A DNA stretch of 53,388 nt, taken from positions 1-53,388 of the forward strand of contig JALJEE010000499.1 of assembly GCA_023231475.1 (NCBI GenBank), given 5' to 3'. Below, piece by piece: positions 441-34,193 of this stretch. Both the position numbers and the translations under genes were made by a program. This stretch comes from Seison nebaliae (lineage: Eukaryota). A model generated the notes under the pieces. That model had not been told where the DNA came from. It did no database searches and was given only the letters and a program-made list of their open reading frames with translations. Position 1 is the stretch's first letter. The number at the start of each line of letters is the position of its first letter.

Positions 441-1173
441 ATGTCACGATTAAACAATGACGAGAGATGGAAGTCATTCATACAATATAATTTGAATGAT
501 ACGAATGACACTGATTGTTTATCAAAATCTTTCTCATATCTTCGATTTATGAATACGAATGATCGAATCGAACCTGAATCGACACCATTAATAAAAGATG
601 GCAATTGTAATAATAATAATAATAATGATAACGATAATAGTACTGATGAGAATAGTGAGAGGGAGCCAGCATTAAACGGAACACTTAATACGAAAGATCA
701 AGTTAAACCGAAAATTGACATTTGCACATTCCAAATAGTTCGAATTAGGCGATTTCTTTCCTAAATATTCACCATTTCTTTCATTCTTATCTCTCTCATA
801 GTTGAATGTAGCAGAAGTTAATTATTTGTGGACGGTCAATTGCTTCTCGTTCAGTCGTGAAGAGTTGCCACAACAATATTGCAGTTCTGCATTCCATCAA
901 ATCGATATGAAACAAAGAATAAAAAATATTTGGTTTAAAAAAGAATGAAATTTTTTCTAATTGTTTAATATTTTTTTCATCTTCTCGAAGGTATATACGT
1001 TTATATTCACGAGGTGTCATTCACGATACGAAAGAATATATTGGAATCTATTTATACTTAAAGAAGAGTACTCATCAATATGTAAATGCGAAATTCTCAT
1101 TTTCGATTATCGATGCTCTGGGAGAAGAGATTGGGAAGACTTGTTAAACATTTCTCTTAGACTTGTCTCAGAG

Positions 1174-1208
<35 letters not shown>

Positions 1209-2371
1209 ATTAGGTACTCAACGTGCTTATCGATTTGTAGCTGGGAAAGATTGGGGATTTAAACAATTTATGAAAAGGAGTTTTCTGGTAGACGAAAGAA
1301 ATCGATTGTTACCCAACGACAGTTTAACGATTCGATGTAACGTTATTTTCCAATCGTTTCATTAAACGTTCCTTCACATTTTCTTTTTCTTTTATTTCTT
1401 CTCCTTTCCAAATAGATTCGTACGACATGTGGCTGTTTGAATTTCACAAGAAATGTTGACGATCAACAAGAATTTCGAGATTATCGATATCGTCATATCT
1501 CACTTCAAATGGACACTTGTTATCTCTTGAATACGGCGAGTATGAGCGATGTCATAATTCGATGTCCCATCGATTCAGCCGTCAGTTGTGGAAGAAGTTA
1601 CAAAACTATGGAAAATCTCGATATTGTGAAACCACATAATGATGGATGGAAAGAACAACGATCGAATTGTTTCATTCAATTTTATGCACATACTTCCATC
1701 TTATCTTATCGATGTGATGTATTCAAAGAAATACTCTCAAATATAAAAGAGAATGTACAAATTAAACGAATTACATTTTTCGATATCGATTCAGCGATTA
1801 TGCATGAAATTTTACGATTCATTTATACGGGACATGTAAAATTACATGCGGCTGATTTCGCACCACTCGATCTTTTAAGTGCTGCACATAAAGTTAACGA
1901 TTCACTGTTGGAAAGAGTAAATTGTTCTAAAGTTCTCAATTAACTAGTTCAAATTGAAAGGAATGAAGAAGTTCTCGGAGGAATCGCTCGATAGTCAAAT
2001 GAACGAAGAGAATGTCGTCGGAATGTTATTCGTTTCTCATGTTTATGATTTGCCCCAACTATTCGACTCAGCATTAACTTTTATTAATTTGTTTCGAATT
2101 TATCTCCAGTCACACTTCTCTTCATTCTACTGTTTTCAGTGTCAGTAACGACAACAAAACTACCTTAACTGGATCAAGTTGGAATTCAGTTTTCGGTCTT
2201 GTAAAAAATATTAGACGTATCGCCACACAAAACGAATATCAAAAGGAACAAAAGATTTTGATCGTCGGATTCGCTGAAAGAATCTTACGCTCACTAGTAT
2301 CATACATCGAAGAAGAAACTGGACCCACGTTCTCTAAGACCAGACGACTCATGAGTGATATCTCCTCATGA
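441..2371 (+). CDS. SPOP: Speckle-type POZ protein-like (MATH + BTB Cullin-3 adaptor), 7 exons
   Basis: MATH motifs [10 protein letters not shown] and [18 protein letters not shown]...[14 protein letters not shown] motifs [30 protein letters not shown]. Six GTT...AG introns (first 738-801) join the fragments in frame. Confidence 0.85.
1178..1205. repeat. (TC)14 microsatellite in SPOP-like intron 3
   Basis: Perfect dinucleotide run read directly. Confidence 0.95.
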
Positions 2372-2642
2372 ACACTTGAACTGTAGACTACTCTACCATC
2401 TCTATATCTCTCTCTCATACTGATTTGACAAGGGGCCAAATTTAATTTATGTTTTTCAATCAACCGTTTCAATAATTTCAGTATATTTTACCATGTCACT
2501 TATCTCCCGCCTCCAACCTAATCAGAAAATGGACTTTAGAATGATCTACATCGTCTCTCGAATAAATATCTTCAACATTTTTCTTTTCCATTATCATTTC
2601 TCTCATTCGAAATTTTCCTTTATCTTTTCAGAAACATTAAAT

Positions 2643-3259
2643 ATGTTCTCCATTTCATTCCTGTTCCTCTCTTTCGTCTTATTGAAATCGTCGATGACTG
2701 ATGAAATCGGCAATTTTCAATTCGACTTGGACAACATGGATTTAAAAGTAACCGATTGTCATGGAAGTTTCTCTTACTCTCATTTCAAGAAAAATATTTA
2801 AATAAAATTTTTAGCAAAATTCCCCAAAGTTGATCTGAAAGGTGTCGCCGTTAATGATTGTAAAGCATTCCCTTGTCAATTGAAAGATGAATCATTCTCG
2901 GAAATCCGCATCGTTTACCAAGTCAAAATTAAACCAGGAAGACAAATTCCAGTTGCAAGAAATAAAATTTATGGGAAGATTGCTGGTCAATGGACACAAT
3001 TCGATTTAGCCGAAGAAAGTATCGACGTTTGTAAATTGGGTAATAATTGTCCAATGAAATCGGGTGATGTAGTCGACTTTAAAACTAAAATATTCATCAA
3101 ACCTCGATATAAATTAGCTGTTCGTATAATTTTAATTTCTTTCACAACTTCTTTCACTTAATATAGACTCGTGGAAAACCGGTTGATATCAAATGGAAAA
3201 TTGTGAATCACAAGAAACGTGAATTGGTTTGCTTCAAATTTAGTGCCATTATCGTCTAA
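2643..3259 (+). CDS. NPC2/ML-domain lipid-binding secreted protein, 3 exons
   Basis: Signal peptide MFSISFLFLSFVLL; ML-type Cys pattern (TDC, DCKAFPCQL, VCKLGNNCPMKSG, IKWKIVN...LVCF). Confidence 0.85.
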
Positions 3260-3514
3260 AGAGAAATTGAATCATAACAATTATTCATTATATTTCAAAT
3301 GTTTTTCTTCTAATTTTCAGTATTAACATTTATCTTGAAAATAAATCTGTTCAGTTTCATTCTACTCTCATAAATTAATTTGTTAAAATTTTATTTTCAT
3401 TAAAAAAAATTTGACGATGGAAAAATGGTAAGAAGCAAATTTTGAAATAATATAAGGAATGATCGTATGCGAAAAAATCGAAGATATAACTAAAAATAAT
3501 TAAAAAACTGAAAA

Positions 3515-4771
3515 TTACATCATCGTTGCAAAAACAGGATTATGTCGACAGATTGATGGACCATGTTCTTCATAATCAGCACGTGTTTTACACGCTTGAT
3601 GGAATTCAGGTGTACTCGCCACATAACTCCCTCCAAACCAAACGGCATATCTCTGCATTGGATGTGTAACAACATTTAATTCGATCGGTTGTGGTTTCGT
3701 TCCTGTAATTTTCTCTGTTTCATTTAATCGTTCGTCTACGACTCTCTTCAAATCTTTTTTCAATCTTCTGTCGAAATCTTTGAACATTGTCGATCCTCCT
3801 GATAGAACAATATTTTTGTACAATCCACGACGGACATCGATTGGTGAATTTTGAATAACATCGTCGACCGTTTCCGAAATTGATTTACGAAAATTTGCAT
3901 TAACAAATTCTGGATGGAAAAATATTTCAGGTCCGAGAAATCGTTCGTGACCGATTTCCACATTAAACTTCCGTTTATTAATTGCATGAATTCCAGTGAA
4001 GGTTTTAATGTAACGATTTGAATCGTTTTCATATTTCTCGAATTCACGTGCAATATCTGGACAAACATAACAATATTGTTCTTTGATGGTTTTTGCCGTT
4101 TCTAATGATTGTTCAGGTGGCATTCGATGTGAATCGTCGACAACAAATTGTTCTCGTTCTCGAAGAAGTTGTTGAATGAAATATGTAATATCTCGTCCTG
4201 ATATTGGAATATGTTTGATACAACTACCAATGACATATCCTTCAGCTACTGGAATGACATGAGTGACACCATCACCTGAATCAATAACAACTCCTGTTAA
4301 ACTTTTTCCAACGTTCTGATTCGATGTACTCATTGGAGCAGCTAATGCTAATACTGCTTGAACGGCAATATAAAGTTTAGGCACGTTAAATAACTCGAAG
4401 AAAATTTCTGCTGTTAATTCTCGATTTTCTGGTGTATTCAACGGAGGTTCCGTCAATAAGAATGGATGATCTTCTGGTTCGACTCGTAAATATTTGAAAA
4501 TACTTTGCTCCCACAACTTCTCCATCTGATCCCAATTCTCTACCAGACCATGACGTATGGGCCATTTCTTACTGTAACCGGTGGCGTTCAAAGCTTCGTC
4601 GCCAATAAAAAAATCGAGATCTTCAAAACGACTCGTTATTTTGGATGAAGTAAATTGTTCTCGAATTGCAATCGAACTGGGAATAATGAATTGGGGGTGA
4701 ATATTACCAGCGAATCCCATTTTGGTGTAACCAGTTCCATTATCGATAACACAAGCTGGATAATGATCCAT
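3515..4771 (-). CDS. ACTR3: Actin-related protein 3 (Arp2/3 complex), intronless
   Basis: [48 protein letters not shown]-terminal [15 protein letters not shown]. Confidence 0.98.
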
Positions 4772-5398
4772 GAATTATATTGTGGTAATGATATGAGAGA
4801 AATAATAAATTGCTTTTAAAGAGAAGACCAAAATGATAAATCTCTTCGTTTGGTGTATATTTTTATGTTTATCTTCTTTCCATTCTTTTTTTTATAAATG
4901 ACATTAAATAATTGAAAATTATTCTTAAATTTTCCACAATTCTTATTCGTCTCAATTGTCGAAATGTTTCCAATTTAAGCTTCACACTAAATTTTTAGAA
5001 ATAGTCAAACATTTTATTAAGCCTTGAAAGTATTTGGATAAAAATGAAAAAATGAAAAATTTTATTGGAAAGATGAATAAAAAATTCATCGTCGATGATT
5101 CATTCATTTGAATAACAGAGAAATAATAACAATCGTTTTTTTTGTTTTAACTGAAATTTATGGAATGAGAATTAAATGAAAATTGATCAAAAAGCAAAAG
5201 TTGTTGTTGTTATGATGATTGGAGTGAAAATGTGAGTGAATAATATTTGTGAAATTTTGTGAAACGAATTAAAAGAAGAATGATTATTAGACGATCATCT
5301 ATTCAGTCGATATTCTATTGAAAGATTGAGGAACTAATGAATGAGAAAAAATTGAATGGAAATTGGAATCTATAAAAAATTTTCTCTGATCATCTTTA

Positions 5399-7976
5399 CT
5401 ACATTGACAATGTACTTCGACTGGTAGCTGTTGATCGATTATTTGTTGTTGTTCGATTGTTTACCGTTGGTCGATTAGAATTATTCTCTAATATACTGTT
5501 GTTGTTATTGAGAGTAATGTTTTGAATGGCTTCGCGAATGTCACTTGTACTGGAACTATTATGAATTGGAAGAATGGTTGCCGTCGTTATTTGAGAAGAA
5601 AGTGTGGATGTAGTATTTGTTTGAGCTCGATTAATAGCGACAAGTGATGATCTAAGATTGGAGAAATGTCGATTATTTGTTGATAATGTTGAATTGTTCG
5701 ATTGATTATTTGGTGTAGAATTACCAGCTGTCATTTGATTATTATCTCCGATATGTCCTCGAATTGGAACTGGTTTTTTCACTCTCTCTTGTTCTCGTCC
5801 ATAAATGATGAAATCTCTCACATTCTTCAATCCCGATAGAACACACACCGATAAAGCTGAACGATAAAGATTCATGTTTGATGCATCATACCATTCGCCG
5901 GTGTCATCATCGTAACATTCAACATTATGAATTGTCGTAACTCCATTGAATCCACCGATGGCAAACATCAAATCATCCAACACTTCAACTGCGAAATTTG
6001 ATCGTGGATTATACATCTCATTAATAGGTCTCCAACTATTCGTTTCTGGTGCATATCGTTCTCCCGAATTCATTCTCGTTATTCCATTAAAACCACCAAT
6101 TGCATACAACTTACCACGATAAGCAGTAACACCCACACCAGATCGACGATTTCGCATATGAGAAATTAAAGTCCATTGTTTCGATTTACCATCATAATAT
6201 TCGGCCGAGTCCAAACATTCTTGTCCGTTGAATCCTCCACAAATATAAATACGATCTTTTAATGTGGCTGCAGACGCATCACTTCGTTGTGCATGCATGG
6301 GTGCACCCATTGACCATTGATTGGTGGTGGGTGAATAAATTTCTGTAGAATTTTGACGAACATGTCCATCAAATCCTCCCATTGCAAAAATCTTATCATC
6401 TAATATGGCTATACTGACATAACATCTGGAGAATGATATGAATAATTTGAATAATTTAAAATATTTCAAACCTTCTGAAATTCATAGGTGCAACATCAGA
6501 CCATTCTTTCGTCACCGGATCGAATTTACGACAAGAATTAAAATAATCTACTCCGTCAAATCCACCGATAATGTAAATTTTGTCATTCAATGTTACACTG
6601 CCATGATAAGCACGAGGACTACTATCGCTATGGTTTAATCGAATCCATTTATCCGTTCGAGTGTCATACATTTCAACGACGGATGTTGGACTACCACCAC
6701 TCCATCCTCCTACCACAAAAAGAATTTCATGTGGAATTCTCGGTTTCGTTATCGGATCCATCATATCGATATCCTGAAGAGAATGAATAAAATAAAGAAT
6801 TTGAAAAAGAAATAACCATATTACTGTCGAGATCTAATTCATATAAATATCTCAAAGTTTCAATAATTAATGGTTTGCATTGTTCCTGTTCTTTGATATA
6901 TGGATGTCCTTTCAAATCTTTTATAAAGAATTGTGTTGACAATAATCCTAATCGAACACATTGAATCAATCGAACAATTTCCTGTTCGAAGTTCATGAAA
7001 ATATTCAAAAATTTTATTTTGCTTAGAAGAATTTCTAACAATTTTTCGGGTATCCGGATCCCGATCAATCCAATTCATTACCGAATGATAAACAATTTCT
7101 TCAGTTCTAACATTTAAATCGTCACATGTGATTATTTCACTAAACTCTTCAACATTCAACATGGTCAACTCGTTGCTTTTATCGAAACAGTGTTGATAGT
7201 TCTTCCTGTGAGTTTTGAAGGAATTTTTAACATGATACTTAATTGAAAATGAAACATTAAATAAATATGAGATTCATCATACAGTTCTTGCCAGAAATAA
7301 TCTTTTGCAAATTTTCTTATTCCAATAACATTTTCAGCGGACAAATGTTCTAATAAGAAATCGGTACATTGCTTAATTAATCCGTCGATTTGAAATCGGT
7401 CAATAGCCAACATCAACCGTTCGATGTTATGCGTGTTAATCAATGCCTTTCTTGAGTATGCCCAATCTAGAAATGGATTTTGAAATTTGAGAATATAATA
7501 TATATATTTAATTTATTATTTAACCTAAAATACATGCAAGTGAATCTTCATCTACTTCATCCAATTGAACTATCTGATTTGTAGTTTTGGTTAGACCGTT
7601 GGTGAATAAAGCACGAAAATATGGACTACATGCTACAAAAGATGATTTGGAAAATTAATTTTGATTTTTCTTCAAACAAACGATTACCTGCTAACACAAT
7701 TCGGTGGACTGGGAAATCTTTATTTGAATCTAATTTTAAAGTGCAGTCACAAAGTAAATTCTGTCGTCGAAGATCAACAAGAATGTTATATGTATTAGCG
7801 CTCAATTGACGTTCGACGCGTCGATCATCGTTCTTACCACAACGAGGACAGAATTCTTTTCGAGGATTAGTTATAAACGATGACATACTATTTAGTCTCT
7901 CATTAATCTTTCCATCATTCTCTCCCTCGTCAATGGGCATATCCTTTGAACGTTCCCAATTAGATGTGAGGGACAT
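5399..7976 (-). CDS. KLHL10: Kelch-like protein 10-like (BTB-BACK-Kelch), 7 exons, with an N/S/T-rich C-terminal tail
   Basis: BTB (LCDCTL, FPVHRIVLA-ACSPYFRALF), BACK, PRIPHEILFVVGGWSGGSPT and PRAYHG as in KLHL10, six GG kelch repeats; six introns restore the frame. Confidence 0.85.
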
Positions 7977-8371
7977 GAGGAAGCTAACAGTTTTTGATGA
8001 ATGATAGAATAGACGTTAATAGCCGTCTTCTCCAATTCGACTAATAAAAGAAAATGAAAAAGTGAGAGAAACAAAAATGGTGATCGAAAATAGACAATAA
8101 ATAATTCTAATTGAACAAAATGCTTAATTCGAGCAAAGAAAAATCTAAAATATACTTTAAAAAACTAAAATTCGTGTTTGCTCGTTTTCGTTTTCACCTT
8201 TAGTTCTTATCTCTCCTTTCGACGATCTCATAATTTATTTCAATTCAAACTCTCAATCATCCGCTTAATGGATGGAAAAGAAGTTTCTTTTTCTTGGAAA
8301 TTATTTTCAGTTTTCTCTTTGTTTTCTTTTTCTTACGATTTTTCATTTATCCTTTTTCTCCCAATTGTTTT

Positions 8372-9061
8372 TCAGTGAAAAAATAAGAATATTCCAAATA
8401 AACTGATTAAATACAAAAGAGAATTCTTCTGTTTCATCATCGAATTTCCTAGAGATCGATTCCAATCTCCAGCGAAACACTTTTCTAAATCTTTGTTTCG
8501 AACTGCCGTTTTGATATAATAAAAAATGTCTATTTTAACAACAATGGAATTATGTAAAATAAATTCAAAAATTTAACCATCTTCTGTCATAGTAACGAGA
8601 TCGTCATAAGTCAATCGTTCACATTCCAAATGTTCTCGAAATATCATAATGATTGGTATATTACGAATTAAATGATGATATCCGATGTTACTCTTTGAAA
8701 TATCAACTTGAATAATTTTCACTCCATAATATGCAATGTTTTGTAATCTGGTAGCTGCAGTTAAGGTTTTAAATCTCAGTCGTTCACATTCACTGCAACT
8801 ATTTTCATAAGGTTCCAATTAATTTATAAGACGATTGAAGAAGAAATGACTAAACTCATTCGCTGTATATAAGAATGCTAAGACGACTTTGGATTTTCGC
8901 ACTTCCACATAAAGACTATTTCCAAAAACCGTATTAATATTTCGGAATGAATGAGCTGTGGGAGGTTTTTTTATAGCTGCCTCTGTGCCATTTCCTGCAC
9001 AATTGATCGTATTTATTGCAAAAATGAAGAACAAAAATATATAATAGAAATAATGAATCAT
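8372..9061 (-). CDS. Secreted or anchored thioredoxin-fold protein, paralog 1 (CSEC), 3 exons
   Basis: Signal peptide; VLAFLYTAND-CSEC across an intron; NIPIIMIF cis-Pro strand; EC and CFAGDW motifs; hydrophobic C-terminus. Confidence 0.75.
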
Positions 9062-9267
9062 GATGAATGATCTATAAAAATAAAGAAATTCGAATAAAAT
9101 ATTTTCAAAAAATTTTCGAAGGAATATCAATTCAAATATTTTGAAATGTAATTGATAAATCTAATTCAATGAATTTCATATGATATCAACAAATCTAATA
9201 TTAACGAATAGTCCGTATATAAATCATAATTTCGGAAAAATTATTGAATCAATCGAATTGTGAAAAA

Positions 9268-9951
9268 ATGTTTAGAATTTGCGCTCTATTCCTATTGATT
9301 TTGGTGAATAATGGTTTGATGGCATCCAAAAAGAAATCATATATCTCAACTGAGGTCATGCGAGTTAGCGGTGATCGTCAAATTTATACGACGATAGTTA
9401 AATATCCGAAAGTATTCGCATTCTTCTACACCTCCAAAGAGTTCGAATAAATTTCGTTCAGTTACAATTTTCAAAATTATTTTTATTAGTTGTCCAAAAT
9501 GTGATGCACTTGCACCGAAATTCCAGAGTATTGGTGATCGTTTCATTGAAGAAAAACAAGGTTTCACTCAATCAATCTTCGCTGACATTCTCAATTCGAC
9601 TTATATCGCTCTTGCACATCGAATAAAGAAATTACCAGCACTCATCGTTTTCCGTCATAATTACGAATGTGAACGGCTAACAACGAAGGAGTTCGAACAG
9701 AGAGATGAAGAACGTTAATTACTTCTCTTTCTCTTTCTCTTCAACTTAATTTGTTTTTGATTCTTCTCATTTCATTAGAAATTTATCAATTCTTGATGGA
9801 ATCGAAGAATTCGAAAACTCTTGTCAATTGTTATTATGGGACGTGGAGAAAATTTACTTATAATAGTCAAACTAAATTACATTATCAATCTTATATTCTC
9901 TCTTTAATCATTATTGGTGGTTATTTCTTGAACCGAATCTGTTTCACGTGA
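9268..9951 (+). CDS. Secreted or anchored thioredoxin-fold protein, paralog 2 (CPKC), 3 exons
   Basis: Signal peptide; VFAFFYTSKD-CPKCDALAPKF; KLPALIVF; EC and CYYGTW; hydrophobic tail. Confidence 0.8.
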
Positions 9952-10079
9952 ATATTGAATGTGATTGAAATTCAAATTATATTTATAACATTTCATTTAT
10001 AATCCAAAGAAGAAAGATGAATAAAATTTTTTGATTGAAATAAAAAATCTTTTCAAATACAATTGGAAATAAGAAAACT

Positions 10080-10704
10080 ATGAAATTTATTGTCATTCTT
10101 TCTTTCTTCATCTTCTATTCGACAATCGTTCCCATCGAATCAATGTATCAATTTAAAGGCATTACTTTCTACCCATTTCTAAGGAAACATAATCGAGTCG
10201 TCGCATATTTTTATGATCCCAAGTTTCCTTTTATTTAAAAGTTTAATGAAAGTTATTTTAAAAATAATGAAGAGATAAATTCAGCAATACTTTTCTGCCG
10301 ACGCTTTATTCTCTAACAAAACATTTCTCATCCACACAAACATTCTTCTCCATGATTGATGTATCTACCAGCGATTATGTTCGTGAGTCACATCGACATG
10401 ATGAAATTCCACGATTAACTTTCTTCTACAAACAATGGGAATGTGATACATTTCTATTGAATAATACCGTTCAAGTAGTTGGTTAATAATTCCAATAATT
10501 TAATGCTTAATTAGAAATTATCTTTAAGATTTAAAAAGGAAATTAAAAGTTGCATTAAAAAGGAATGATTTCCATCGTTGTACCATTGGTAGTTGGCAAT
10601 CGAATAAAAATGAAGGACAAAAAAATAATGCAAATCATCTATCAAAAGATTTTATGATTCTTTCATCATTTTGCATTTCAATGATATTTCTCAATAAATT
10701 TTAA
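10080..10704 (+). CDS. Thioredoxin-fold protein, paralog 3 (CXXC lost), 3 exons; missing from the ORF track
   Basis: MKFIVILSFFIFYS signal; VVAYFYDPK-DKFS; EIPRLTFF; WEC and CTIGSW; same two intron positions as the paralogs. Confidence 0.72.
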
Positions 10705-10908
10705 ATTTAAAATTCAATTTTTACAATAATCATTTTGTCTTTCTATTATAATAATTTCTGATTGTTTTATGAACAAACGAAAGTTCAACATAAATTGATT
10801 ATATATATAAAATAAGCGCAAAAACTTAAATTTTCTAATTTCCTAAAATTCACTCGATTGACATTTTTTTTTGTTTAAATCACTTACTCTCGTCGTATTG
10901 ATTGAAGG

Positions 10909-11573
10909 ATGACGAAGACATTGGGAATCTTCTTTTTTCTATTCCTACTGAAGTTCACGTCGATTAGCACTACATTTATTCCAACACATCCACAAGTTGG
11001 ATCATTTTATGGCGATGAAATTTATAAAACAATTAGATGCAAAAAATTTATTATTGTAGAATTTTATTATTCAGAGTTTGTCATCTTTTTTCCAATGAAA
11101 TTGAGATTCATTTTGAATTTGTAGATGTTCTCATTGTCAATTATTCGGACCGAAATTCCATAAAGTAGTTCAGAAGGCAATTGATGATAAATTGAATGTG
11201 TCATTCGCTCGAACTGACATACTTTCCATCCAAACTCACATGTTCTACAATCATCGAGTTCATACCGTTCCAACATTAATTTCCTTTATGGATGGACGTG
11301 AATGTGATGCTGTTGAAATTATGGATGCATGGGATGTTGACAGTTTTTTTTAATTCCTCCAAATTCTCATTCAACACTCAAATTTCAGAGATTTATGGAT
11401 ATGTAAAAAATATGACTAGACGAACACAATCTCATGATTGTCGTTCAGGATTCTGGTTACATTTCGAGAATCCCTACAGTGTCTTTAAACGTAATGGAGC
11501 AAATTATATAAACGGAAATCATTTATTGATGATCGGTTCGATTATTTTCTTATTGAAATATCTAATTCAATGA
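10909..11573 (+). CDS. Secreted or anchored thioredoxin-fold protein, paralog 4 (CSHC), 3 exons
   Basis: Signal peptide; IIVEFYYSE-CSHCQLFGPKF; TVPTLISFMDGREC; CRSGFW; hydrophobic tail. Confidence 0.8.
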
Positions 11574-11726
11574 TATTGTAAATTATTATGTATTGTTTTG
11601 GAGAGGAATGTGGCTTCTAACACGACATACATAATTATAAAATTGAATTCATCTTTTATTCAGTTTTTGAAATTGAAAGCTAAATTATCTCCTAATAAAA
11701 TTTAAATATTTTCTCAACATTACGAG

Positions 11727-12227
11727 ATGGTTGATGCGAACACGAAAAAATTGTTATCGGGAATTCCCGTTTGTCGAACGAATGCTGGACCGCGTGACCC
11801 TAATTGGTCATCTCGTCTTAAAGAAGAATTCACAGCACTCATCGAATATGTGAAAAGGAATAAAGTTGCTGATAATGATTGGTTCAAATTGTCATCGGAT
11901 GAAACCGGATTCCGTTGGAATGGTAAATGTTGGTATGTACATACGGATATGAGGAAATATGAATTTGATGTTGAATTTGAAATTCCTGTGACATTTCCTA
12001 AATGTGCTCCTGAAATCGTCTTACCCGAATTAGATGGGAAAACAATGAAAATGTATCGAGGTGGTCGTATTTGTCTCACTGATCATTTCAAACCGTTATG
12101 GTCGAGAAATGTACCGAAATTTGGTATTGCACATGCCATGGCCTTAGGCTTAGCTCCATGGTTAGCGGTTGAGATTCCTGATCTCATCGAGAAAGGATTG
12201 GTGATTCATAAAGAAGATAAAAAATAA
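11727..12227 (+). CDS. UFC1: Ubiquitin-fold modifier-conjugating enzyme 1, intronless
   Basis: [57 protein letters not shown]. Confidence 0.98.
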
Positions 12228-12305
12228 AAATTCTCATTCCAAAAGAAATTCGATAAATTTAATTTAAATTATTATCATTCAAATTATTTATTTATTCTCA
12301 AACAG

Positions 12306-12793
12306 ATGGCATTGCGTCAATTGTCAAATATTCAGAAACATTTGTCGTTAAAAGGTTGTTCATCAATCGTTATCAATTTCGATCCATGGAATCATAATTG
12401 TTATTCTATTCGGTTATTATTATAAATTTTTTTTATTAATAAAAAATAATTTTCAAGAGATTTTATGCAACAAATTATGACGGAGCGAACAAGAAGAACG
12501 AATACGAATTGTAAAGTAAAAGTGAATGTTAAATCGGATGGATTGGATCCATTAATCGATTTGAAATTCAGTTAGCTATTCTTTCGATTGTATTTTAACG
12601 ATAAAGAGAGAATGAGATAAGAAAATGTAGAAGAAAAAATTTAAAATATTTATTTTTGTTCTCATAATTATTTTTGTTTCTTTTGGAAGGCGATGGACAA
12701 AAGGTTCGAATGGAGACAAAACATTTGACGTCGTTAGACATACATCATTTTTTCAACAATTTCCTTCAACAAGCGATTGATAAGACGAAATAA
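12306..12793 (+). CDS. MRPL53: Mitochondrial ribosomal protein mL53, 3 exons; missing from the ORF track
   Basis: Spliced product ...IVINFDPWNHNCYSIRDFM...RRTNTNCKVKVNVKSDGLDPLIDLKFSDGQKVRMETKHLTSLDI fits the mL53 pattern. Confidence 0.8.
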
Positions 12794-12801
12794 AATTCTT
12801 C

Positions 12802-14238
12802 TCATAAATGATGTGCGATGATTTCGATGTCACTGTCATTATCATTTTTTGAGTTTGTTGATGATGATGCGACTGATGAAGGAATTCTTTCTTTATCTGA
12901 TGGAGCTGTTATATTTGAAGTGGATTGTCCATGAGAGATGTTTCGTTTTCTTAATGTTGTCATTGTGTTATTGAATGTAAGTGGATCGATAATTTCTCCG
13001 TTGTCAACGGGATGATCACTTATTGTTAAATCATCACTTTTTCTTACTCGACTCTTTCCCATATTCATAAACTTACAATTGACACATCGATATTCTAAAA
13101 TGAGAAAAATTATTTTGAATTATTCAAACACGTTAACCTAAAGTTGGAAACTCTTCAGGAAATGCTAATCCATTATGGAAATGACATCGCTCACAAACAA
13201 GAGCATATCTTTGTGGAGAATTAATTTGAAATTAATTTTAAAATAAATTAAACTTGTTTGATGGACCATCTCCAATAAGGAAATCAACAAATTTTTCAAA
13301 AACTGAACGATTGACTGGCATCGGATTTTTCGATTCATTTGTTGATGTCACTTCTTCCAAATGTTGGAGTTTCATATTAACAATTTCTTTTTCACTCGTT
13401 TCATTCTCGTCGTTCTTTTCAGTTATCATCTCATCATCAACAACATCATTATCATGAGATGTAGTAGGAAGTATTGGAGAAGAAGATGATGTATTTTTGT
13501 CGTCGGATTGTTCATTCGGTTTCTGGTTAATAATCAACTTTAATTAGTTGATCGTCTTTTAAGTATTCTTTAACTTTATTAGGATCATGTTTTATTTGAA
13601 CGTTCTCCTTTATTCTTTCATCTATCTCATCAAATTTTCTTCTACTATATTTATTCAATAATTCTTTCGTCTTATTATATGGTTCACTTTCCATTGCTTT
13701 TGACAACTATTTAAATAATGAAATTATATAAAAATATTTTATAAAAATAAAATATGAAACCAATTTCAATATATTTTCATCCAACAATTCAATTTGTTTA
13801 TCGATTGATGAGATCATGAACGAATAATACCAATTAATAAATCGTTTCATTCCATAATAACTTTAAATGGAATGATTATCTCATATACAATAAATGAGAG
13901 AATGAAAGAACAATAAATAATTTAAGCAACACATAAATATCGTGGCTAAATAAAGTCGTTTACCTTGAACATAGTAACACCAATCCATTGTCAAAAATTG
14001 TGCCATCAATATCAGAATTGAATTCATGGCAATTAAAATTATGAAAATTCTCCTCGCAAATTGGTACCATCGATTTCTTCTTCGTAATAATTCATTTCGA
14101 CTTTTTTCGGATTTTCTCAATTTTTCATCGGTGCTCTCAAGTTCCTCCTCGATGGAACGTTCTTTCTACGAAAAATTAAATTCATTCTCCAAATTTGAGA
14201 GTGGAAGAAAAATAAACAAAAAGTCCAAAAAATTTCAT
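12802..14238 (-). CDS. LNPK: ER junction formation protein lunapark, 6 exons
   Basis: Coiled coil and two hydrophobic segments; RSVFEKFVDFLIGDGPSN-YALVCERCHFHNGLA...YRCVNCKFMN zinc finger. Start inferred (MKFFGLF-KERSIEEELES). Confidence 0.9.
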
Positions 14239-14467
14239 CTGTCCATCCAAGAACGTTAAGATCGGTAAAAAAAAATAGAAGAAAAATGATTGATTCGAAA
14301 TTAAAATTTTTTTATAATTTGACTCATTTCAATTTGATTTTCTTTACGTTGACCATTCATGATTAATCATAATTCGATGAAAATTATTCATAATCTGAGA
14401 ATTTCAAATTTTTAGTTTAATATTTTTATTTCAGAGACGTCCAACGTAAAGTTGCAATTAAAGGAAG

Positions 14468-14686
14468 ATGTTGGAAAAGCAGCTGCTTATGAAGGCAGGT
14501 CCACTTGCTCGTTTAATCGGTCCTCGATATATACAACTCTGTAAGAATTGGTTACCCAGTACAATAGCGTATGGGACAATGACAGGATTGGCAGTCTGTT
14601 ACTTTACTGATTGGCGTGTCATTGTGGACAAGATTCCCATTTATAATCGGAAATTTCCAGTAGTTGAAGAAGAGGAAGACGAATAA
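14468..14686 (+). CDS. UQCR11: Cytochrome b-c1 complex subunit 10 (6.4 kDa)
   Basis: GPRYIQLCKNWLPS...YFTDWRVIVDKIPIYNRKF family signature. Confidence 0.93.
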   Translation: MLEKQLLMKAGPLARLIGPRYIQLCKNWLPSTIAYGTMTGLAVCYFTDWRVIVDKIPIYNRKFPVVEEEEDE

Positions 14687-15086
14687 ATTTAAAGAATTTA
14701 GAAATTAATTAACTATTGATATCATTGATCGAACATTTTTTATCCTTTTTAGAGAATCATTATAAAATTTATTGGGTCAATTTTTTTCTTTTTTTTAATT
14801 TTATAAAATTATTCACTTAAAACAATAATAAATGGAAGTAAATATGAAGATAATAAAATTTTTAAAATTTTAATTAATTTTCAATTCAATCTTCAATTCT
14901 TGGAATTGGAAATCATATGCGTAATGGAAATGGAAACAGAATAATTTTAAAATAAATAAGATAAGCTTATATTAAAATTTAATTTGGAGAATTGTGACAA
15001 TCTGAAAAAAATTACGAAAAGGATTTCCAATTAAATTTTTTTTGTTTCTGTTCAAAATTTCAGAAAAACATTTTAATTTCTTCATA

Positions 15087-18000
15087 ATGTTATCAATGTT
15101 CCCATATGTGAGAGATGCAAAAACGTTTTTGAAAGAAGTCAAACAATTGACAGTAACATCAGAACAGTTAATTTTATTTTGAAATTCCAAGAACGATTCA
15201 ATTGATTAGACAAATTGAAATATTTGATATCCTCGATCGATATTCTTTCATTATTTGTGCTCGTATACCATTTCTGGAAATTAAATTGGAACATGATTCA
15301 GCATTTTATAGATTTTATGGTGTACACAAAGTTCCACTCGTCGATCTCATATTAGTTAATGTTTTTAGCATGATTTAATTTGAGATTGATGATTAGATGT
15401 TGAGATCGTGTGATCGAGACAATTGGATATTCCGAAGAGAATCGACAAAGTTGGTGAAAATTCAAAATGAAAGAGTTGAATGTCTCATTGACGCTAATCA
15501 AAAGAGATGTTATTTTGAATCAATGGATAAGAGATTTTTGGAACATATTCGAAATGATCCATTATCTTATGCCACTTTCCATCAATTGTTCAGTGGCAAT
15601 AATGAATTCAGTCGAGCTTATTTGAAATTTTTCCGTTTATTAGAAACACCTTTATATCAATTTCGATTATTATATAATTGTTATTGTTTTGTTAAATGGA
15701 AAGAGGAATATATTAAATCTGATTATTATCTCCAATTGTCTGGAAAGAATGTTTTCAATCTCATGTTCCAAACTCGGAAATTGGAGAACATTTCCCATTG
15801 GAAAGATTTAGAAAACATTTTAAAAAGTTCCATTCTACCAATTCGCATTTATATTCATCGAGCATGTATCAAAAAGGACGATGAGAAAAGTTTAAATAAT
15901 TTCTTCAATTCACTTTTTGTGGGAGGAAAACAGAAAGAAGTATATTCCCAATTATCGTCAACAAAAGAAGGAATTGAAATGAAAAAGAATTTATTGAGAT
16001 TTTCAAGAAAAGTTTCTGGAAGAATTTTTTGTAAAAAATCTTATATTTCTCTACTTTTCCTTCGGAATCGATCGAGATTGAAAAGAGTTCCCACTAATTT
16101 CCTTTATCGACCATCTCAACAAATTTTCAAACTCTATTCAAAAATTGCTCTCAAATTATTTCCTTCCAATATTTTCAATCGATCAAATTTAAATAATTTA
16201 TTGAAATTAATGAACATTTTAATCTGTTTCGATGGGAGTCGATTGTGGAGATATGGGAAATTATTAGAAATGATCGATGTTTCCAATATCAATTCGAAGA
16301 AGAAGAAGAAGAAGAAGAATGAGAATTGTGAGACGTTGATGAAATTAATCATCGCTGTGGATTTATCTTGGAAATTGTTAACGAAATATTTTTATATTAC
16401 CGAAACTTCGGTAAACGCAAATAAATTATTTTTCATTTATCGATCGCATTGGAGAGAAATGGTGAATTCGAAACAATTTGAAAATTATATTAGTAAAAGT
16501 TGTCAAAGAATAGAGGAAAGAACTGGTGGTGGTGGAGGTGATGGATATGGTAAGAAATCTTCCTGTCGAATATTACCAAAATTAGCGATGAATAGATGTT
16601 TTTATAAATTTATTGGATTTCGATTAATCAATTCTTGGTCGAAAGAAGAAAAAGAGAAAAATAAGAGAATATTAACTTGTCTCAAATATGTGATGGAGAC
16701 GTTAGATGAAGAGAAGAAGAGAATGTTCAAAGGAGTTGGATTAGAAGGAATAAATAAGATCAATGACACATTAACAAAGTGGAAAGAGAAGAATAAAAAC
16801 GGAATGAATTTTTGTGTTTTAGCTGATATTACTCAATGTTTCGATAATATCATCTTATCTAAATTATTGGACGGATTAGAAGTGATGATACCAGATCGTG
16901 TTCAATTAATTATTCAAAATATCAATTCTTGTACTCTCTCTAAAAACAATTCATATCGAACTTTCTATCATGTGAATGAGAGAAAGAATTGGAAGAAACG
17001 GAAATTGAGTGATTCGATGAATGAGAATATTAGACCAAATAAAAAATTTCGAAATAATGAAGAGAAATCAATGGAGAAATTCGAAAGAAAACCAATTGAT
17101 CAATTGTCAATTATACGACGACAATCCAAATTAGAATTGTGGACGAAAGATAATTTATTGAATGAATTACGTTCACTCTTCTTCAATTCACAATTCCTGT
17201 TGAACAATAAGATTTATAAGAGAATAATCGGATTATCTCATTCCAATTGTCTTTCCCCACTTCTCACCAGAATTTATTTGGGAATGTCGGAAGTGAAACT
17301 AAATTGGTCGAACAACATTCGTCACATCGATAACGATCGATTATTCTTTACCGTTCGATATGTGGATGATTACATATTCTTCTTCAACAACAAATCAGAT
17401 GCTGTTCGACATGTTCATTTATTAAAAAATGGTTCGTTTCTTCTTTTTTTTAAACATTTATTCATTCATTCCATTAGAAATGAAAGAATTTAATATAAAA
17501 TTCAATTTAGCAAAAGTGAAAAAGAATTTTGATGAAACAAATAACGGAAGTTAATTAACTAAATGATTTAGAAAAAGTAAAATATTTGATAGAGCCTGAT
17601 AAAACATTGAAATGGTGTGGAAATATTATGGATCCGTCACTCAATTTGATACCTTCGTCAATGAAAATTTTATGTTTAGGTATGACAAAAAAATTTACAT
17701 ATGATTTGACATATTCGTCGATCATTCTAATTATTCTTCTTTAGATGAAATGTTATTTCAAAGGAAAAATTTTGATATAAAATTGAAAGAATTAATACAA
17801 GAAAAGTTCCATTTGTTTATGTTCATCGAATCATCATTATGAAAATTTCAGGTTTTTCAAACAATTGAAATGTGTGGAGAAATTGTATAAGAATAAAGTT
17901 TTGTTCATTTCAACTTATTAATAATTGATTTATTATTTATTTTAGAATAGTTATAGTTCGAAAGGAATCCTCCTTTATATCTGCAGATCATTCGCTACAC

Positions 18001-18596
18001 TCTTCAAATCCTTCGAAAATTTGTTGAGAAAGATTCCTAAAGGAATTCGTCATCATATTATTTATCGGAATAAGAATATCGTTTTTGGTTTGTTATTCTT
18101 CTCAATAACATCTCCAAAACTTTCGTTGAAGATATTTTCATTTCGAATTTTCCTTATCCTCATAAATTCAGACATTTCAATAAACATGTCCAATTTATTT
18201 TATCAAGTTATAATTATTTTTATTCGAATTATTCATTCCAATTCTCAGAGAATTCACGTTGTCGAACTTATGAAGAAACGGTGAATTTCAATCGGATAAA
18301 ATATCTCATCACTCCAATGATTCGAAGGTTCCACCATTTCCAAAAAAACAACTAAATTTCATTTATAATATAGTTCATTGATTATTTTGCTGTTGTATTT
18401 GACAAGGAAAGAAAACGAATTATTTTCTGCATGTCGCAAACAATGTGATAAATATTATAAGAAATTGATGAAAAATAAAGTTTCATTTTCATTAATCTTT
18501 CTCATAAAACCGATTATTTAATAGTTCATCAAAGACGAAATGTTAAATGGATTACATGATTCCATAATTATGGATATAAAAAATTTTTTGAAATAG
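15087..18596 (+). CDS. TERT: Telomerase reverse transcriptase (divergent), about 12 exons
   Basis: TEN/GQ-like YYLQLSG; T motif YFYITETS...LFFIYRSHW; motif 1 CRILPK; motif 2 FRLI; A ADITQCFDNI; B' GLSHSNCLSPLL; C RYVDDYIFF; D FNIKFNLAKV; E KWCG. The terminal exons chain in frame through short introns to TAG at 18594-18596, but are less certain than the core. Confidence 0.9.
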
Positions 18597-25680: not shown

Positions 25681-28600
25681 TTATCTTAAACTTTTCCTGT
25701 GTTGATTTGTGGAGGAAATTAAACTTTTAATTTCATCAATTGCTGATATTTCGAACGTCGACATATTTACTTCTTCATTCGATAAGGACTCCGATTCAGA
25801 AGAAGCGGTTTTGTTATTATTGAAAAATCTCATATTTAATTCGGATCCAACCGTCTTCAATTTAAATTTCTATTTAAAATTAAATTTGTTATTTTCGAAT
25901 AAATCGAATAAAAAAACTTTTTTCACTTTCTCCCGTTTATGTTTCATATGCCACGAAAATTCGAGACATGCCATGATAAATCCAATTCCAATTCCAACAC
26001 AGAGAATCAGAAAAACTCCTCCAACATTCGCTAGACCTAAAGTTGTGGCATCATCGGTTTCACTCGTATCTTGAGAGATACATTTACCACCGCCTTTCTT
26101 CTTCTTCCACCATAAATTATAAAGTGATTGAATGTCTCCCATTTCTTGCATTTGTAATATACGATCGGAAAGTATATCTCTGAATGGTGAATCTATTTGG
26201 GATGAATATGAAATATTATTTGAAGAATAAAAGAAACTTGTTGGTGTTCCGATACCATATCCTTTCGACGCCAACAATCCTCCCACTTGAGTTAATTCGC
26301 AATCTCGTTGTATCATATAATTGATGGTTTTTGATTCCATAATAAATGCATATTTCCCTTCTTTAACTCGACGGAAACCTTCGCCATTACTTGGAACGAA
26401 ACAATCGGAACATTTCGCCATAAAATTATACATTCTTTCATACGTTGGTATTCGAGATTCCTTCGACGAATGAAATTATGAAATTTAAATAATAACAAAT
26501 AATTAATAACAATAAAAAATGATTGAGAAGATCCACCACGTAATGCTCCATATTTAATTTCAGTTTGTTTAGCTAAATCTTCCGCTCCCCGAATAGGCAA
26601 TTGCATTCGATTGGATGTGAGAAATGCGGCCAAATTTGCAGTATAAGATGAAACGATAATGAGACAGAAGAACCACCAGAAACCGCATAATAATCTCGTT
26701 GAGAATGCACGAATTGGAATTTCTGAACCTTGCTGCATAAAACAACCTAAATTGAACCAGAGAGCATTTAATAAAGTGATTTGATTTGTATCATCAATTT
26801 CTTCTGCTGAACAAGATTCAGGATTGTACCATTCGTAAGGAGAGAAACGAGCAATGATAAATAAACCAAAACTTATTCCTAAATATGCCGCCACAATATA
26901 TAACCAGATGTTGATAGAAAATGGTGATAAGAAGGAAAATAAATTTGAAGATTTCTTTTTACTTTTTTTAAAAAGAATTCCAATTCCAGATTCGAAAAAC
27001 GGTTTCGTAAAATCGATCACTTGTTCACGACTTAACGTTATGGTGAGATCACTTATGGCTAAATCAGCTTTCTAAAACAGATGAATTTCCGGGGAAATTA
27101 GAAAGTGAACGAACTCTTGTCATTAATTCGTGAATCATTCCATTCCAAACTTTTGGATTATTCTTCAACGGTTGTCCATGTTTTCCATCTTCAACTTGTT
27201 TAAATCGATAATTGAAAATGAAGTCATCTTTCTTCATTAATTCTTTTATTCTCAGAAATAAATCAACAGCAAATCCTTCAAATCGTTCATTATCTTTATA
27301 TTTATATGAATCATTCTTCAACATAATATATGGTTCAGTCTTGAAAATTTTCATAAAAATATCATAAAATTTCATTTATATTTAAATAATTATTAACAAG
27401 TTTCACTGACACAATCAATGTCATATTAGCCAAATACTCTTTTGTTATAATAACGTCTTCATTATAATTCCTTTCCAATAATACCGAATCTTTATTCACG
27501 GTTCCCAGTGAACGGAATTTCGAATATCTCAATTCCAAAACTTCGAATTCCACTTTCTTTAACGACATTCCACTTAATTTCCCATTAAAATTCTAAATTT
27601 AAATTACATTAAGAAATTAAATAAATAAATTAACGTTCATTTTAATCGTCTCCAGAAATCCATGGCCATATTTCCACGGTTTTAATTTGAGACAGGATAA
27701 TTTCTCGTCAAAACTAATTTGGGACTTGAGGACGATGTCCAACAAATAATTTCCCAGATCTAACAACAAAGAATGATTTAACTATTATGAAATAATTTAA
27801 CAATTCTAGATAATTTCATGAATATAACATATAACGAAAATGATGAAAATTTCTCAAATGTCGGAATTTTTGGATTATGTCCATTTCTTATATATTTCCC
27901 CATCGATTCCCCATACCATCGAACATAATTCGTATCGGAACGTTTCAATCTCAATACTGTTATATTTCCAATTGTATTATGGAAAGAATTCCAATTCATT
28001 GTGACAGAATCCTTTAAGAGAAATTTGTATTTTGAAAAGTTAAAAATTTCATTACTAAACTAAATTGACAATAAGATATTTTCGATAATTGTTGATTAAT
28101 TTACGTTTTAATGCCATTTCCATAATACTTCTCGTATTCTCATAATTGCAGTCGATGACTACCTGATTCTCCGTTGACTTCTCAATCAAATCAAATATGA
28201 AATCTTCATTCCCATTATATTCAAGACTGCTCAATATCGTTCCTTTTAGATCGATACGGAATGAGATCATTCGAGCAAATGAAACTGTATCATCAAAAAT
28301 ATAAAGAATTTCTTTCCATCGAAATTCTCTTAATAAGTTTTGCAGACTTTGTCTCACAACATCATATGATGGATATAAGGAAATGAAATAGTTCTGATCC
28401 AATACTAAATAATCAATATGGAAACAAGGAATATGGAAATTTTTGCAAATTGATGATAATTGAATTGCCGCTGGATTACCCACATTAGTTACGATTGCTG
28501 TGACACCTTTTGATAAGAGTTTACACACTAAAATGGAAATAAAAATTTGAAATATTTGTAAGAGAATCGAATGGTGAACTTGCACGATATGCTTTATATG

Positions 28601-28811
28601 CATTCCATGATTCAACATAATCGATAAAGAAAGAAATATTTTTAATTTTCGTGCTTGATTGATGTAATAATTTTGTTTGTTCATTCAATAAAGTTAGAGT
28701 ATAATCGATGGCATTCCGATCGTGAACATTATTTGATTTGAGTATAAATCCAATTTTGAATGAAAAGATCGGATTGATAATGAAGAGAATTAAAAGAAGA
28801 TACTTAATCAT
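25681..28811 (-). CDS. Ionotropic glutamate receptor, kainate/AMPA-like, multi-exon
   Basis: Signal peptide and ATD; RFEGFAVDL, WNGMIHEL, IDFTKPF, RFSPYEWYNP, M2 FMQQGS, M3 SYTANLAAFLT, LAKQTEIKYG, CELTQVGGLL, M4 LGLANVGGVF. Confidence 0.95.
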
Positions 28812-32600: not shown

Positions 32601-33944
32601 CCATACCAAGTCGTAATATTGTGATAATGTGTATTCGTTCATGGTATAATCGATTAAAGTATTATCGTAGAAGTTTTGACATCCACAACAACCAGTTGCT
32701 TCACATGGTTTACATTGAGGTGGTGGTGTGGTGATGCATGGTGGTGGTCGTGTTGGTGGGACGGTGCATGGTGTTGTTTCAGGTTTCTCGCAACAAACGT
32801 CTCGACAATCAACAGCTGCTGAAATCCAATCTAGTCCTAAGGTTGAGAAATGAAAAGTTGTTTTAAACTTTCAAATTAAAATGATCAAATGAGAACCATG
32901 TGATCTCTGACATTGTTTAGTGAACCAGCTATTTGCGTCGGGTAAATTGGAACATGCGTCAGGACAAGTTTGTTGTCTTATCGGTCGATAAATCGTTCGA
33001 ATTTTAACATCAAGTTCCAATACGGCACTGGATTGTGAACCTCTCAATTTCAATTTGTAATTGTATTCTTTCTTATGACTATCTGCCAATCGACCGACCG
33101 CTAATTTATCTAACACCTGATTATCGAAATGTACTTGACAATATGTCTCGTTCATTGTAGTAGACAAATCGCATCCAGCATCTAAAGATTTGAGGATATC
33201 ACCGTCTATATCTGTTTCTCCTTCTCCAAATTCGAATGACGGTATCAATTTCTCATCGGAGAAATGTTCAAATCGGAATTTGCCCATTGACACACCTTTG
33301 CAGTTATCCAAAAATACTGATTTTGGTTCAATCTAAATGAAATAATAATGAAATAAACAGAAATTAATTATTAAATAATTATTAACTGGATCTACTTCAC
33401 AGTCGATAATTTTGGATTCGGGTGCATTTAACCATTTGATTTCTGGTTTTTTCGGTTGGTAGTACAAATATTCCTTTGGATTGTACTATAAATGAGAGAC
33501 ATTAAATAATTTTTATTTGTCGCAAAACTTATTTTAACTTTATCATAACATTTGAATTCAGGAACCAATTCTTTGTTCTAAACAATAATAATTGTCTATT
33601 TGGGCTAATAAGTGAATAGACTAACAAAATCGAGAAGAATCTTCCCATTCGACATTGACATGCCGATGCATCTCCAACTAGACTTTAGATGAATGGCACA
33701 CATTTCTACATGAAAATAAAATGTTACTTTTAAGAACTCGTAAGTTGTTAGTAACCATTTTTCTGCAACGGAAACACAGTCGCGACATTGCTTTTCCAGC
33801 TAAGTCGACAGGGACTATAATGGACTCGATCTAGAAGATTTTCATTAGATAATAGTTATCTAATAAATGTTAATTCTAACGATGTGCTATATAAGCAAAT
33901 GTACTTGATACGAGACCAATTAATAGAATGGCCAATTTCATCAT
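29625..33944 (-). CDS. Large secreted modular protein A: Cys-rich N-terminus, Pro/Thr hinge, vWA-like, EGF-like repeats, two chitin-binding (CBM14/peritrophin-A) modules; many exons
   Basis: Signal MMKLAILLIGLVSSTFA; PDVIFVID...KKIVLLTSQG vWA strands; CPSGCIAGW and CGYGCAKKCGLC EGF-like; CGRPDGYYAHPLDCRKYVICSQG...CPPGEHFNEKTKCC CBM14 at about 30177-30340. Confidence 0.78.
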
Positions 33945-34193
33945 TATTCAATCTTTTTAATTCTCTTAAATTTCTTCTCAGGCTTTTATATTCGCTATAT
34001 TTATGTTAAGGTCAGAGGGCAAGTAAACGTCCGTCAAGGGGATTTCCTTCGACAATAAATGGTACGAGTTCGATTCTGCTTAATCTTCATACCTTCAGAT
34101 TATTTATGAGTAAAGTTCATCCAATCTTATGTAAACATTAGATTGTATTTAATGGAACACTTCCGTGACAATATCTCAAAAAGAATATTCATA
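33945..34193. promoter_or_regulatory. 249-bp bidirectional promoter region
   Basis: Lies between two divergent ATGs. Contains TATAAAAG on the minus strand (33983-33990), GGGGATTTCC (34038-34047) and GTAAACA (34131-34137). Confidence 0.6.

What the first reader, a model, noticed from the sequence alone, without database searches (positions are those of the whole stretch)
738..18530. Rewired 5' splice-site code: introns almost all begin GTT, with little else conserved
Seen: of 40 introns reconstructed by frame and homology in SPOP, NPC2, KLHL10, the four Trx genes, mL53, lunapark and TERT, 38 start GTT (GTTAAT, GTTTCA, GTTCGA, GTTATT, GTTTTT and others) and 2 start GTA. Only about a quarter have G at +5, and exonic -1 G is not favoured. 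Introns examined further along the window mostly follow the same pattern. Known: the usual animal donor is AG/GTRAG, read by U1 and then the U6 ACAGAGA box; +3 U is a minority base, with Entamoeba GUUUGU the familiar exception. Inference: donor recognition is altered in this lineage, through changed U1/U6 sequence or modification, or through protein- or length-based definition of short introns. Circularity risk: poorly conserved exons were partly placed using the pattern, but conserved domains show it independently.
Basis: partly seen in the sequence, partly recalled or inferred. Interest (0 to 1): 0.9.

Follow-up and report, generated by a model that had tools for sequence, protein, structure and literature searches.

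The report
An animal whose introns start GTT
In this stretch of DNA from the small marine rotifer Seison nebaliae, about 95% of the introns reconstructed from protein homology and reading frame begin GTT instead of the usual animal GTA/GTG, which likely means that the RNA guide that reads intron starts has itself changed.

Summary
The window is a Seison nebaliae (seisonid rotifer) contig. In 738-18530, 39 of 41 introns start GTT and 2 GTA; in the whole window 75 of 79 start GTT. Tests that ignore the third base agree: homology with a free donor gives 11 GTT of 12 GT introns, and a gene model with a flat donor gives 52 of 55, against a background of 45-63%. Bdelloid-like relatives have equally short AT-rich introns and share 5 of 6 KLHL10 intron positions, yet only 25 of 75 start GTT, mostly with +5G. 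So old donors were recoded; composition and intron length do not explain it. 'Little else conserved' needs a correction: -1 A and +5 purine are enriched, and all three GTA donors follow exonic AG. The standard U1 5' end pairs with these donors no better than with controls; U1 C8A/C8G or U6A changes would fit best. No RNA reads and no snRNA gene were reachable, so the mechanism is inferred. Entamoeba (GUUUGU, co-evolved U1) is the published precedent, and this scan noted GTT donors earlier in Bonamia. My searches found no animal case.

The parts
441..2371 (+). SPOP-like MATH-BTB gene; introns 738-801, 933-990, 1143-1213, 1342-1415, 1893-1947, 2091-2139, all GTT
   Evidence: deposited model P0241 maps letter for letter; Pfam MATH_2 and BTB
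2643..3259 (+). NPC2/ML-domain gene; introns 2767-2814, 3120-3166, both GTT
   Evidence: open frame; ML domain E 0.003, below the curated cut-off
5399..7886 (-). KLHL10 gene; introns 7687-7633 (AG|GTAATC), 7524-7467, 7255-7206, 7039-6982, 6816-6774, 6471-6426 (GTT)
   Evidence: all six pinned by homology with a free donor; five positions shared with bdelloid-like loci
8372..11573 (.). Four thioredoxin-like paralogues (9061-8372 minus; 9268-9951, 10080-10704, 10909-11573 plus), two introns each at the same two aligned positions and phases; all 8 GTT (8855, 8577, 9441, 9714, 10223, 10482, 11076, 11343)
   Evidence: paralogue alignment; Pfam Thioredoxin on 2 of 3 middle exons tested
12306..12793 (+). 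mL53 gene; introns 12413-12457 and 12571-12689 (119 nt), both GTT
   Evidence: open frame; MRP_L53 on exon 2
12802..14238 (-). Lunapark-like gene (name from recalled motifs, not from a call); six introns, donors 14217, 13911, 13760, 13574, 13253, 13137, all GTT
   Evidence: open frame of 379 aa; flat-donor posteriors 0.61-1.0
15087..18596 (+). TERT gene; 11 introns, 10 GTT and one AG|GTATGA at 17680 (in-frame GTT alternative at 17674)
   Evidence: library protein P0242 maps letter for letter; RVT_1 and Telomerase_RBD; C-terminal junctions are not fixed by homology
25681..28811 (-). Ionotropic glutamate receptor gene; nine introns, all GTT (28579, 28060, 27828, 27634, 27397, 27114, 26510, 26237, 25917)
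   Evidence: six pinned by homology with a free donor; deposited model P0130
29620..33944 (-). Multi-exon secreted-protein gene (approximate 3' end), about 15 introns, GTT except one modelled GTC at 33621 that an all-GTT parse (33755-33706, 33625-33578) replaces
   Evidence: flat-donor model; re-parse
33920..38245 (+). Multi-exon gene region (approximate borders), 15 modelled introns, 14 GTT and AG|GTAATA at 34252
   Evidence: flat-donor model

Best explanation
Seison introns reconstructed here are ordinary short GT-AG introns whose third base is almost always T, and the likely cause is that the 5' end of its U1 snRNA now carries a purine (probably A) that would pair with +3U, so that GUU rather than GUR is the recognised start. 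Shown: the +3T bias, its absence in bdelloid-like relatives at shared intron positions, the residual -1 A / +4 A / +5 purine signal, and that standard U1 gives no pairing advantage. Inferred: the U1 change. Two single changes fit almost equally. C8 to A (or G) would slide the whole helix one base into the intron (+1G with C9, +2U with A8, +3U with A7, +4/+5 with the two pseudouridines, -1A with U10). U6 to A (position 6 of U1) would keep the register, as in Entamoeba. I lean to C8A. The rare GTA donors would survive by using exonic AG. Pairing stays weak, so intron length (about 50 nt), a U-rich 5' tract and the YAG acceptor probably supply the rest. A likely path is that the ancestor already tolerated a GTT+5G donor class, as bdelloids do, and a guide change then made +3U the favoured base.
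For: 75 of 79 GTT; free-donor homology 11 of 12; flat model 52 of 55 and 58 of 63. Bdelloid-like loci give 25 of 75 GTT, Fisher p 6e-17, and 4 of 24 by the same flat method. In a scan of 56 U1 5'-end variants the standard sequence ranks 33rd for Seison (advantage -0.01 kcal/mol) and gives 2.48 kcal/mol for bdelloid-like donors; the best for Seison are C8A 1.26, C8G 1.20 and U6A 1.20, while C8A gives only 0.09 for bdelloids. The shifted template fits both halves of the data (z 4.7 and 4.0; canonical 1.4 and 2.1). AG precedes 3 of 3 GTA but 6 of 75 GTT donors (p 0.001). Precedent: Entamoeba and Mastigamoeba U1 changed with their donors (Roy and Bowser preprint, passages).
Against: Any variant that pairs with +3U gains in the scan by construction, and I took up the shifted template after seeing the logo. 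The shifted register predicts +6G, which is absent (4 vs 4.6 expected); +7T is part of a general T plateau at +7 to +11; the template also scores z 2.9 on bdelloid GTT donors. Mean pairing energy even with the best variant is only -2.6 kcal/mol. Most lineages with altered donors keep a standard U1 (yeasts, Giardia, Trichomonas, Micromonas, Thecamonas). One 53-kb contig, 79 introns, no RNA. The bdelloid set is one gene family, 17 intron positions, so not independent.
Confidence: 0.5

Rival explanations
1. U1 is unchanged and the +3U requirement is imposed later or by protein. U6 ACAGAGA could read +3U (a U-G wobble or a G-to-A change), or U1-C, LUC7, Prp8 or a TIA-1-type U-binding protein has diverged. 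U1 pairing then hardly matters in these 50-nt introns.
For: +5G is still enriched (14 vs 4.6), as U6 pairing would give. There is a T-rich plateau at +7 to +11. Most altered-donor lineages keep a standard U1, and Roy and Bowser note that GUUUGU could pair better with an unchanged U6. Seison has lost about a third of metazoan BUSCO genes (PMC8351084, passages).
Against: +5G is present in only 14 of 75 GTT donors, so U6 pairing is weak too. It does not by itself explain the -1 A excess, though U5 loop uridines could. The known m6A/SNRNP27K effects act at +4 and favour AG|GU.
Confidence: 0.3
2. Unchanged U1 reads these donors in the +1 shifted or +2/+3 bulged register known from a few human introns, and that minority mode became the norm.
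For: Shifted and bulge templates fit best (z 6.0 and 4.9 vs 2.6). These registers are documented in humans (PMC4856993, passages).
Against: An unchanged U1 gives no reason to lose GTA.
Confidence: 0.1
3. AT-rich mutation pressure on weak donors of tiny introns, with no change in the machinery.
For: The window is 31% GC, T follows GT in 40 of 63 intron-interior sites, and bdelloids already have a third GTT.
Against: 95% far exceeds 45-63%. AT pressure should also give GTA, which is nearly absent. Equally AT-rich, equally short bdelloid-like introns are mostly GTA with 63% +5G.
Confidence: 0.07
4. The introns are copies of a mobile intron (introner) that happens to begin GTT, or the pattern is a reconstruction artefact.
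For: Some junctions (TERT tail, secreted proteins) rest on frame models only.
Against: 5 of 6 KLHL10 positions are shared with bdelloid-like loci. There are 31 different donor hexamers among 79 introns. Free-donor homology gives the same junctions.
Confidence: 0.03

Closest known systems
Entamoeba GUUUGU(U) donors with co-evolved U1 (ACAAAC); Roy and Bowser, bioRxiv 10.1101/2022.06.08.495308 (passages)
   Same: +3U is fixed or nearly so in GT-AG major-type introns
   Different: Entamoeba is intron-poor and has a strict hexamer (88-90% GUUUGU). Seison is an intron-rich animal with 31 hexamers in 79 introns, only 1 of them GTTTGT; +4 leans to A and +5 to A over G. Its U1 is untested.
Shifted (+1) and bulge +2/+3 registers of human 5' splice sites on U1 (Roca and Krainer 2009, known here only as cited in PMC4856993; passages of the latter)
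   Same: GUU start with A at -1, +4 and +5 fits a helix slid by one base
   Different: A small minority class in humans, stabilised by +6G; here it is nearly every intron and +6G is absent
Bdelloid-like GTTTGT/GTTCGT donor class (own data)
   Same: Same intron length, shared positions, about a third of donors GTT
   Different: 21 of 25 keep +5G and pair well with standard U1; GTA remains the majority
METTL16 / U6 m6A / SNRNP27K-linked donor change (PMC11347140, passages)
   Same: The machinery state changes the preferred donor
   Different: Acts at +4 and favours AG|GU; Seison fixes +3 and rarely has AG

Membership tests
Major (U2-type) spliceosomal introns | GT...AG ends with Y or A before AG | tested here: met
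   12 of 16 free-donor calls land on GT; -3 is T 63%, C 20%, A 16%, G 0
Major (U2-type) spliceosomal introns | GTR donor with +5G, complementary to standard U1 | tested here: not met
   +3R in 3 of 79, +5G in 14 of 79; no pairing advantage
Major (U2-type) spliceosomal introns | Removal shown in RNA | not testable with these tools
   no RNA holder listed; the laid runs that cover the stretch behave as DNA
Entamoeba-type transformed donors | +3U in nearly all donors | tested here: met
   75 of 79
Entamoeba-type transformed donors | Strict GUUUGU hexamer | tested here: not met
   1 of 79 GTTTGT; template z 2.1
Entamoeba-type transformed donors | U1 5' end changed to match | not testable with these tools
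Shifted-register 5' splice sites | Consensus displaced by +1 (-1A, +3U, +4R, +5A) | tested here: inconclusive
   -1A, +3T, +4A and +5R enriched; template z 6.0, but chosen after the logo was seen
Shifted-register 5' splice sites | +6G pairing with U1 C4 | tested here: not met
   4 observed vs 4.6 expected
Minor (U12-type) introns | RTATCCT donor and CCTTAAC branch site | tested here: not met
   no such hexamer among 79; no such motif among the top enriched k-mers; consensus as given in PMC3033335
Introner (mobile intron) families | New, lineage-specific positions | tested here: not met
   5 of 6 KLHL10 positions shared with bdelloid-like loci

The most novel reading that the evidence does not exclude
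Seison is the first animal whose major spliceosome was recoded genome-wide: one change at U1 position 8, the base that normally pairs with the invariant +1G, slid the U1 helix one base into the intron and made GUU the obligatory start of tens of thousands of old introns.
Probability: 0.25. Interest if true: 0.9.

Novelty: new variant of a known kind. Interest (0 to 1): 0.72.

Why it matters
GTR is so general in animals that aligners build it in (PMC12766944, passages). Known rewired donors come from protists and fungi, mostly intron-poor ones, and why U1 co-evolves in some and not others is an open question. Seison is an intron-rich animal with a sister group that keeps the old code at the same intron positions and already carries a GTT minority. 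That allows a direct test of how thousands of sites and their reader change together. The prediction is cheap to check on public data: read the first 11 bases of Seison U1. It also matters for annotation, because standard donor models will misplace Seison junctions and may inflate its apparent gene loss (inference).

Tried and rejected
Run search: no RNA holder listed. Laying four runs on 600-18700 showed no splice joints; two cover the stretch as DNA and two laid nothing. Whether a diverged second copy of KLHL10 exists in the runs stays open. Rfam found nothing in the window or in 15 fetched loci. A SPOP homologue search returned only the Seison model, and the TERT library search returned only weak relatives besides a letter-for-letter match, so neither pins junctions. 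A fully free aligner (any donor, any acceptor) slides junctions by 0-4 nt, as expected, and was not used for counts. EM on the third base rises to 92% T but is self-reinforcing, and it wrongly moved the homology-pinned GTA at 7687 to GTT, so only the flat pass was counted. No positioned branch-point motif emerged; enriched 4-mers were TCAA and TTCA, against a mononucleotide shuffle only. No GTT avoidance in coding DNA: Val GTT is 44%. Model calls rejected by hand: GTA at 11056 (the thioredoxin CxxC frame needs GTT at 11076), 8503, 13072 and 27000. One search used wrong start coordinates for five genes and was redone. The Roca and Krainer paper is not held.
Full report
Identity. Three homologue searches each returned a deposited Seison nebaliae protein on a contig of 53,388 bases (SNEBB_009634, 009644, 009631), and these map to the window letter for letter once introns are allowed. 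Seisonids are epizoic rotifers, sister to Acanthocephala within a clade with bdelloids in the genome paper's preferred tree (PMC8351084, passages). No whole genome was available.

The observation. Nine genes rebuilt by hand give single open frames, and TERT follows library protein P0242. Together they hold 41 introns in 738-18530: 39 GTT and 2 GTA, with +5G in 10 and -1G in 14. Adding nine glutamate-receptor introns and the 29 other donors with flat-model posterior >=0.9 gives 79: 75 GTT, 3 GTA, 1 GTC. The GTC is probably a model error, since an all-GTT parse with one intron fewer gives an open frame, but that re-reading used the pattern, so I left the count unchanged.

Circularity. Profiles from 40 non-Seison homologues each were aligned with any donor allowed. 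Sixteen introns were called; 12 landed on GT and agreed with the GT-only run (11 GTT, 1 GTA), and 4 in the divergent receptor N-terminus are unresolved. A gene model that scores the third base as background gave 52 GTT of 55 confident donors (66 of 70 at posterior 0.7, 81 of 87 at 0.5), and 58 of 63 without hand-set gene borders (its intron composition was trained on curated interiors from +7 on). The four thioredoxin-like paralogues place two introns each at the same aligned columns and phases, all 8 GTT. Among GT sites at intron distance from a used acceptor, 74 of 100 GTT but only 4 of 61 others are used (78 introns, before two TERT junctions were updated). Background is 0.445 in non-coding DNA and 40 of 63 inside introns; 75 of 79 exceeds both (p 6e-22 and 5e-11), and 11 of 12 gives p 0.001 and 0.03. 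The four database models hold 35 introns, 32 of them GTT. Two of these cut out conserved residues at exonic GTT (6036-5989 and 26872-26807; compare), which hints that the predictor learned GTT from the whole genome (inference; the pipeline is unknown to me).

Relatives. A metagenome scan with a rotifer KLHL10 alignment gave 80 loci; I aligned 20. Nine, whose best hits are Rotaria or Adineta proteins at 81-90% identity, were used; L007 was dropped as a duplicate of L008. They give 83 homology-pinned introns, 75 after removing repeats: 40 GTA, 25 GTT, 7 GTG, 3 GTC, with 63% +5G, and 21 of the 25 GTT donors keep +5G against 13-14 of 75 in Seison. Lengths match (median 50). Five of six Seison KLHL10 intron positions are shared with them. 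The flat model on the flanks of L008 and L013 gives 4 GTT of 24. These 75 introns come from 17 positions of one gene family and are not independent. Monogononts and acanthocephalans were not examined.

What else is conserved. Against controls from the same exon and intron, GTT donors show -1 A 38 vs 23.8 (p 7e-4), -1 G 19 vs 15.9 (n.s.), +4 A 34 vs 25.4 (p 0.04), +5 A 36 vs 25.4, +5 G 14 vs 4.6 (p 2e-4), +5 T 14 vs 34.8, and +6 G 4 vs 4.6 (p-values not corrected for multiple tests). T is 56-63% at +7 to +11. All three GTA donors follow AG, against 6 of 75 GTT donors (p 0.001). The acceptor is (T>C>A)AG with a mild T tract and few G, and no positioned branch motif was seen.

Mechanism. With the U1 5' end printed in PMC4856993 I computed duplex energies in three ungapped registers for true donors and matched GT controls, for the standard sequence and 55 single changes. 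Standard U1 separates bdelloid-like donors from controls by 2.48 kcal/mol (z 11.8, rank 11 of 56) but Seison donors by -0.01 (rank 33). Best for Seison: C8A 1.26, C8G 1.20, U6A 1.20, and an inserted A 1.09. C8A also accounts for -1 A/G and +5 A/G; the shifted template fits both halves (z 4.7 and 4.0). Against this: variants that pair with +3U win by construction, +6G is missing, pairing stays weak, the template scores z 2.9 on bdelloid GTT donors, and most altered-donor lineages keep standard U1. I give a changed U1 0.5, a U6 or protein cause 0.3, a shifted reading by unchanged U1 0.1, and composition 0.07. The shifted-register idea came from earlier notes of this scan and was then tested here.

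Literature. I read passages only, of PMC8351084, PMC10125929, PMC11347168, the Roy and Bowser preprint (32), PMC11347140, PMC12766944, PMC3033335, PMC10599564, PMC4856993, PMC9311317 and PMC8283771. Roca and Krainer 2009 is known only as cited there. Ten searches found no description of Seison donors or of an animal with a +3U consensus; 'Seison' with 'spliceosom' gave 0 papers. The library lacks most subscription journals, and I did not see the supplements of the genome paper or of the multi-species surveys (PMC11347168, PMC3033335), where such a logo could sit. This scan's earlier notes report GTT donors in the protist Bonamia ostreae (unchecked) and none for Seison.

Verdict. This is a real, lineage-specific recoding of the third intron base, seen on one contig. 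It works like the Entamoeba case but is not a member of that strict class, and I found no animal precedent. Interest 0.72; the U1 sequence would settle the mechanism.

Noticed in passing
window 6036-5989, 7810-7761, 26872-26807: The deposited models SNEBB_009634 and SNEBB_009644 call introns here that remove residues conserved in homologues (kelch repeat, BTB start, first membrane region); they are probably false introns.
   Followed up: yes
L004, L005, L006, L008, L011, L012, L019, L020, L021: Bdelloid-like KLHL10 loci carry a large GTT donor class (25 of 75) that nearly always keeps +5G (GTTTGT, GTTCGT); some positions (424, 484) are GTT in all copies seen.
   Followed up: partly
window 8372-11573: Four diverged single-domain thioredoxin-like genes in a row, with signal peptides, hydrophobic tails and two shared intron positions; one (10080-10704) lacks the CxxC motif.
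   Followed up: partly
window 3518-4774, 11727-12227, 18690-22301, 39399-45260, 46867-48333: Long intron-free frames (Arp3-like actin family, UFC1, phage-type RNA polymerase-like, a 1950-codon ORF, a zinc-transporter-like gene; the last three named from recalled motifs or not at all) sit among genes with an intron every 150-200 bases.
   Followed up: no
window 17674 and 17680; 7681 and 7687: Both GTA donors of the finding have an in-frame GTT 6 nt away; homology favours GTA at 7687, while 17680 is open. These are candidate tandem donors.
   Followed up: partly
window, intron interiors: Introns hold only 6% G on the sense strand (230 of 3710), and the window shows no CpG depletion (observed/expected 1.26).
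   Followed up: no
window 15397-17431: TERT has one exon of about 2 kb covering the RNA-binding and most of the RT domain, flanked by many tiny exons.
   Followed up: no
window 33333-33706 and 33200-33332 (minus strand): The secreted protein starting at 33944 seems to hold a weak internal repeat (Cys-x-Gly-x-Ser-Met motif) on both sides of intron 33386; the alignment score is low (34).
   Followed up: partly
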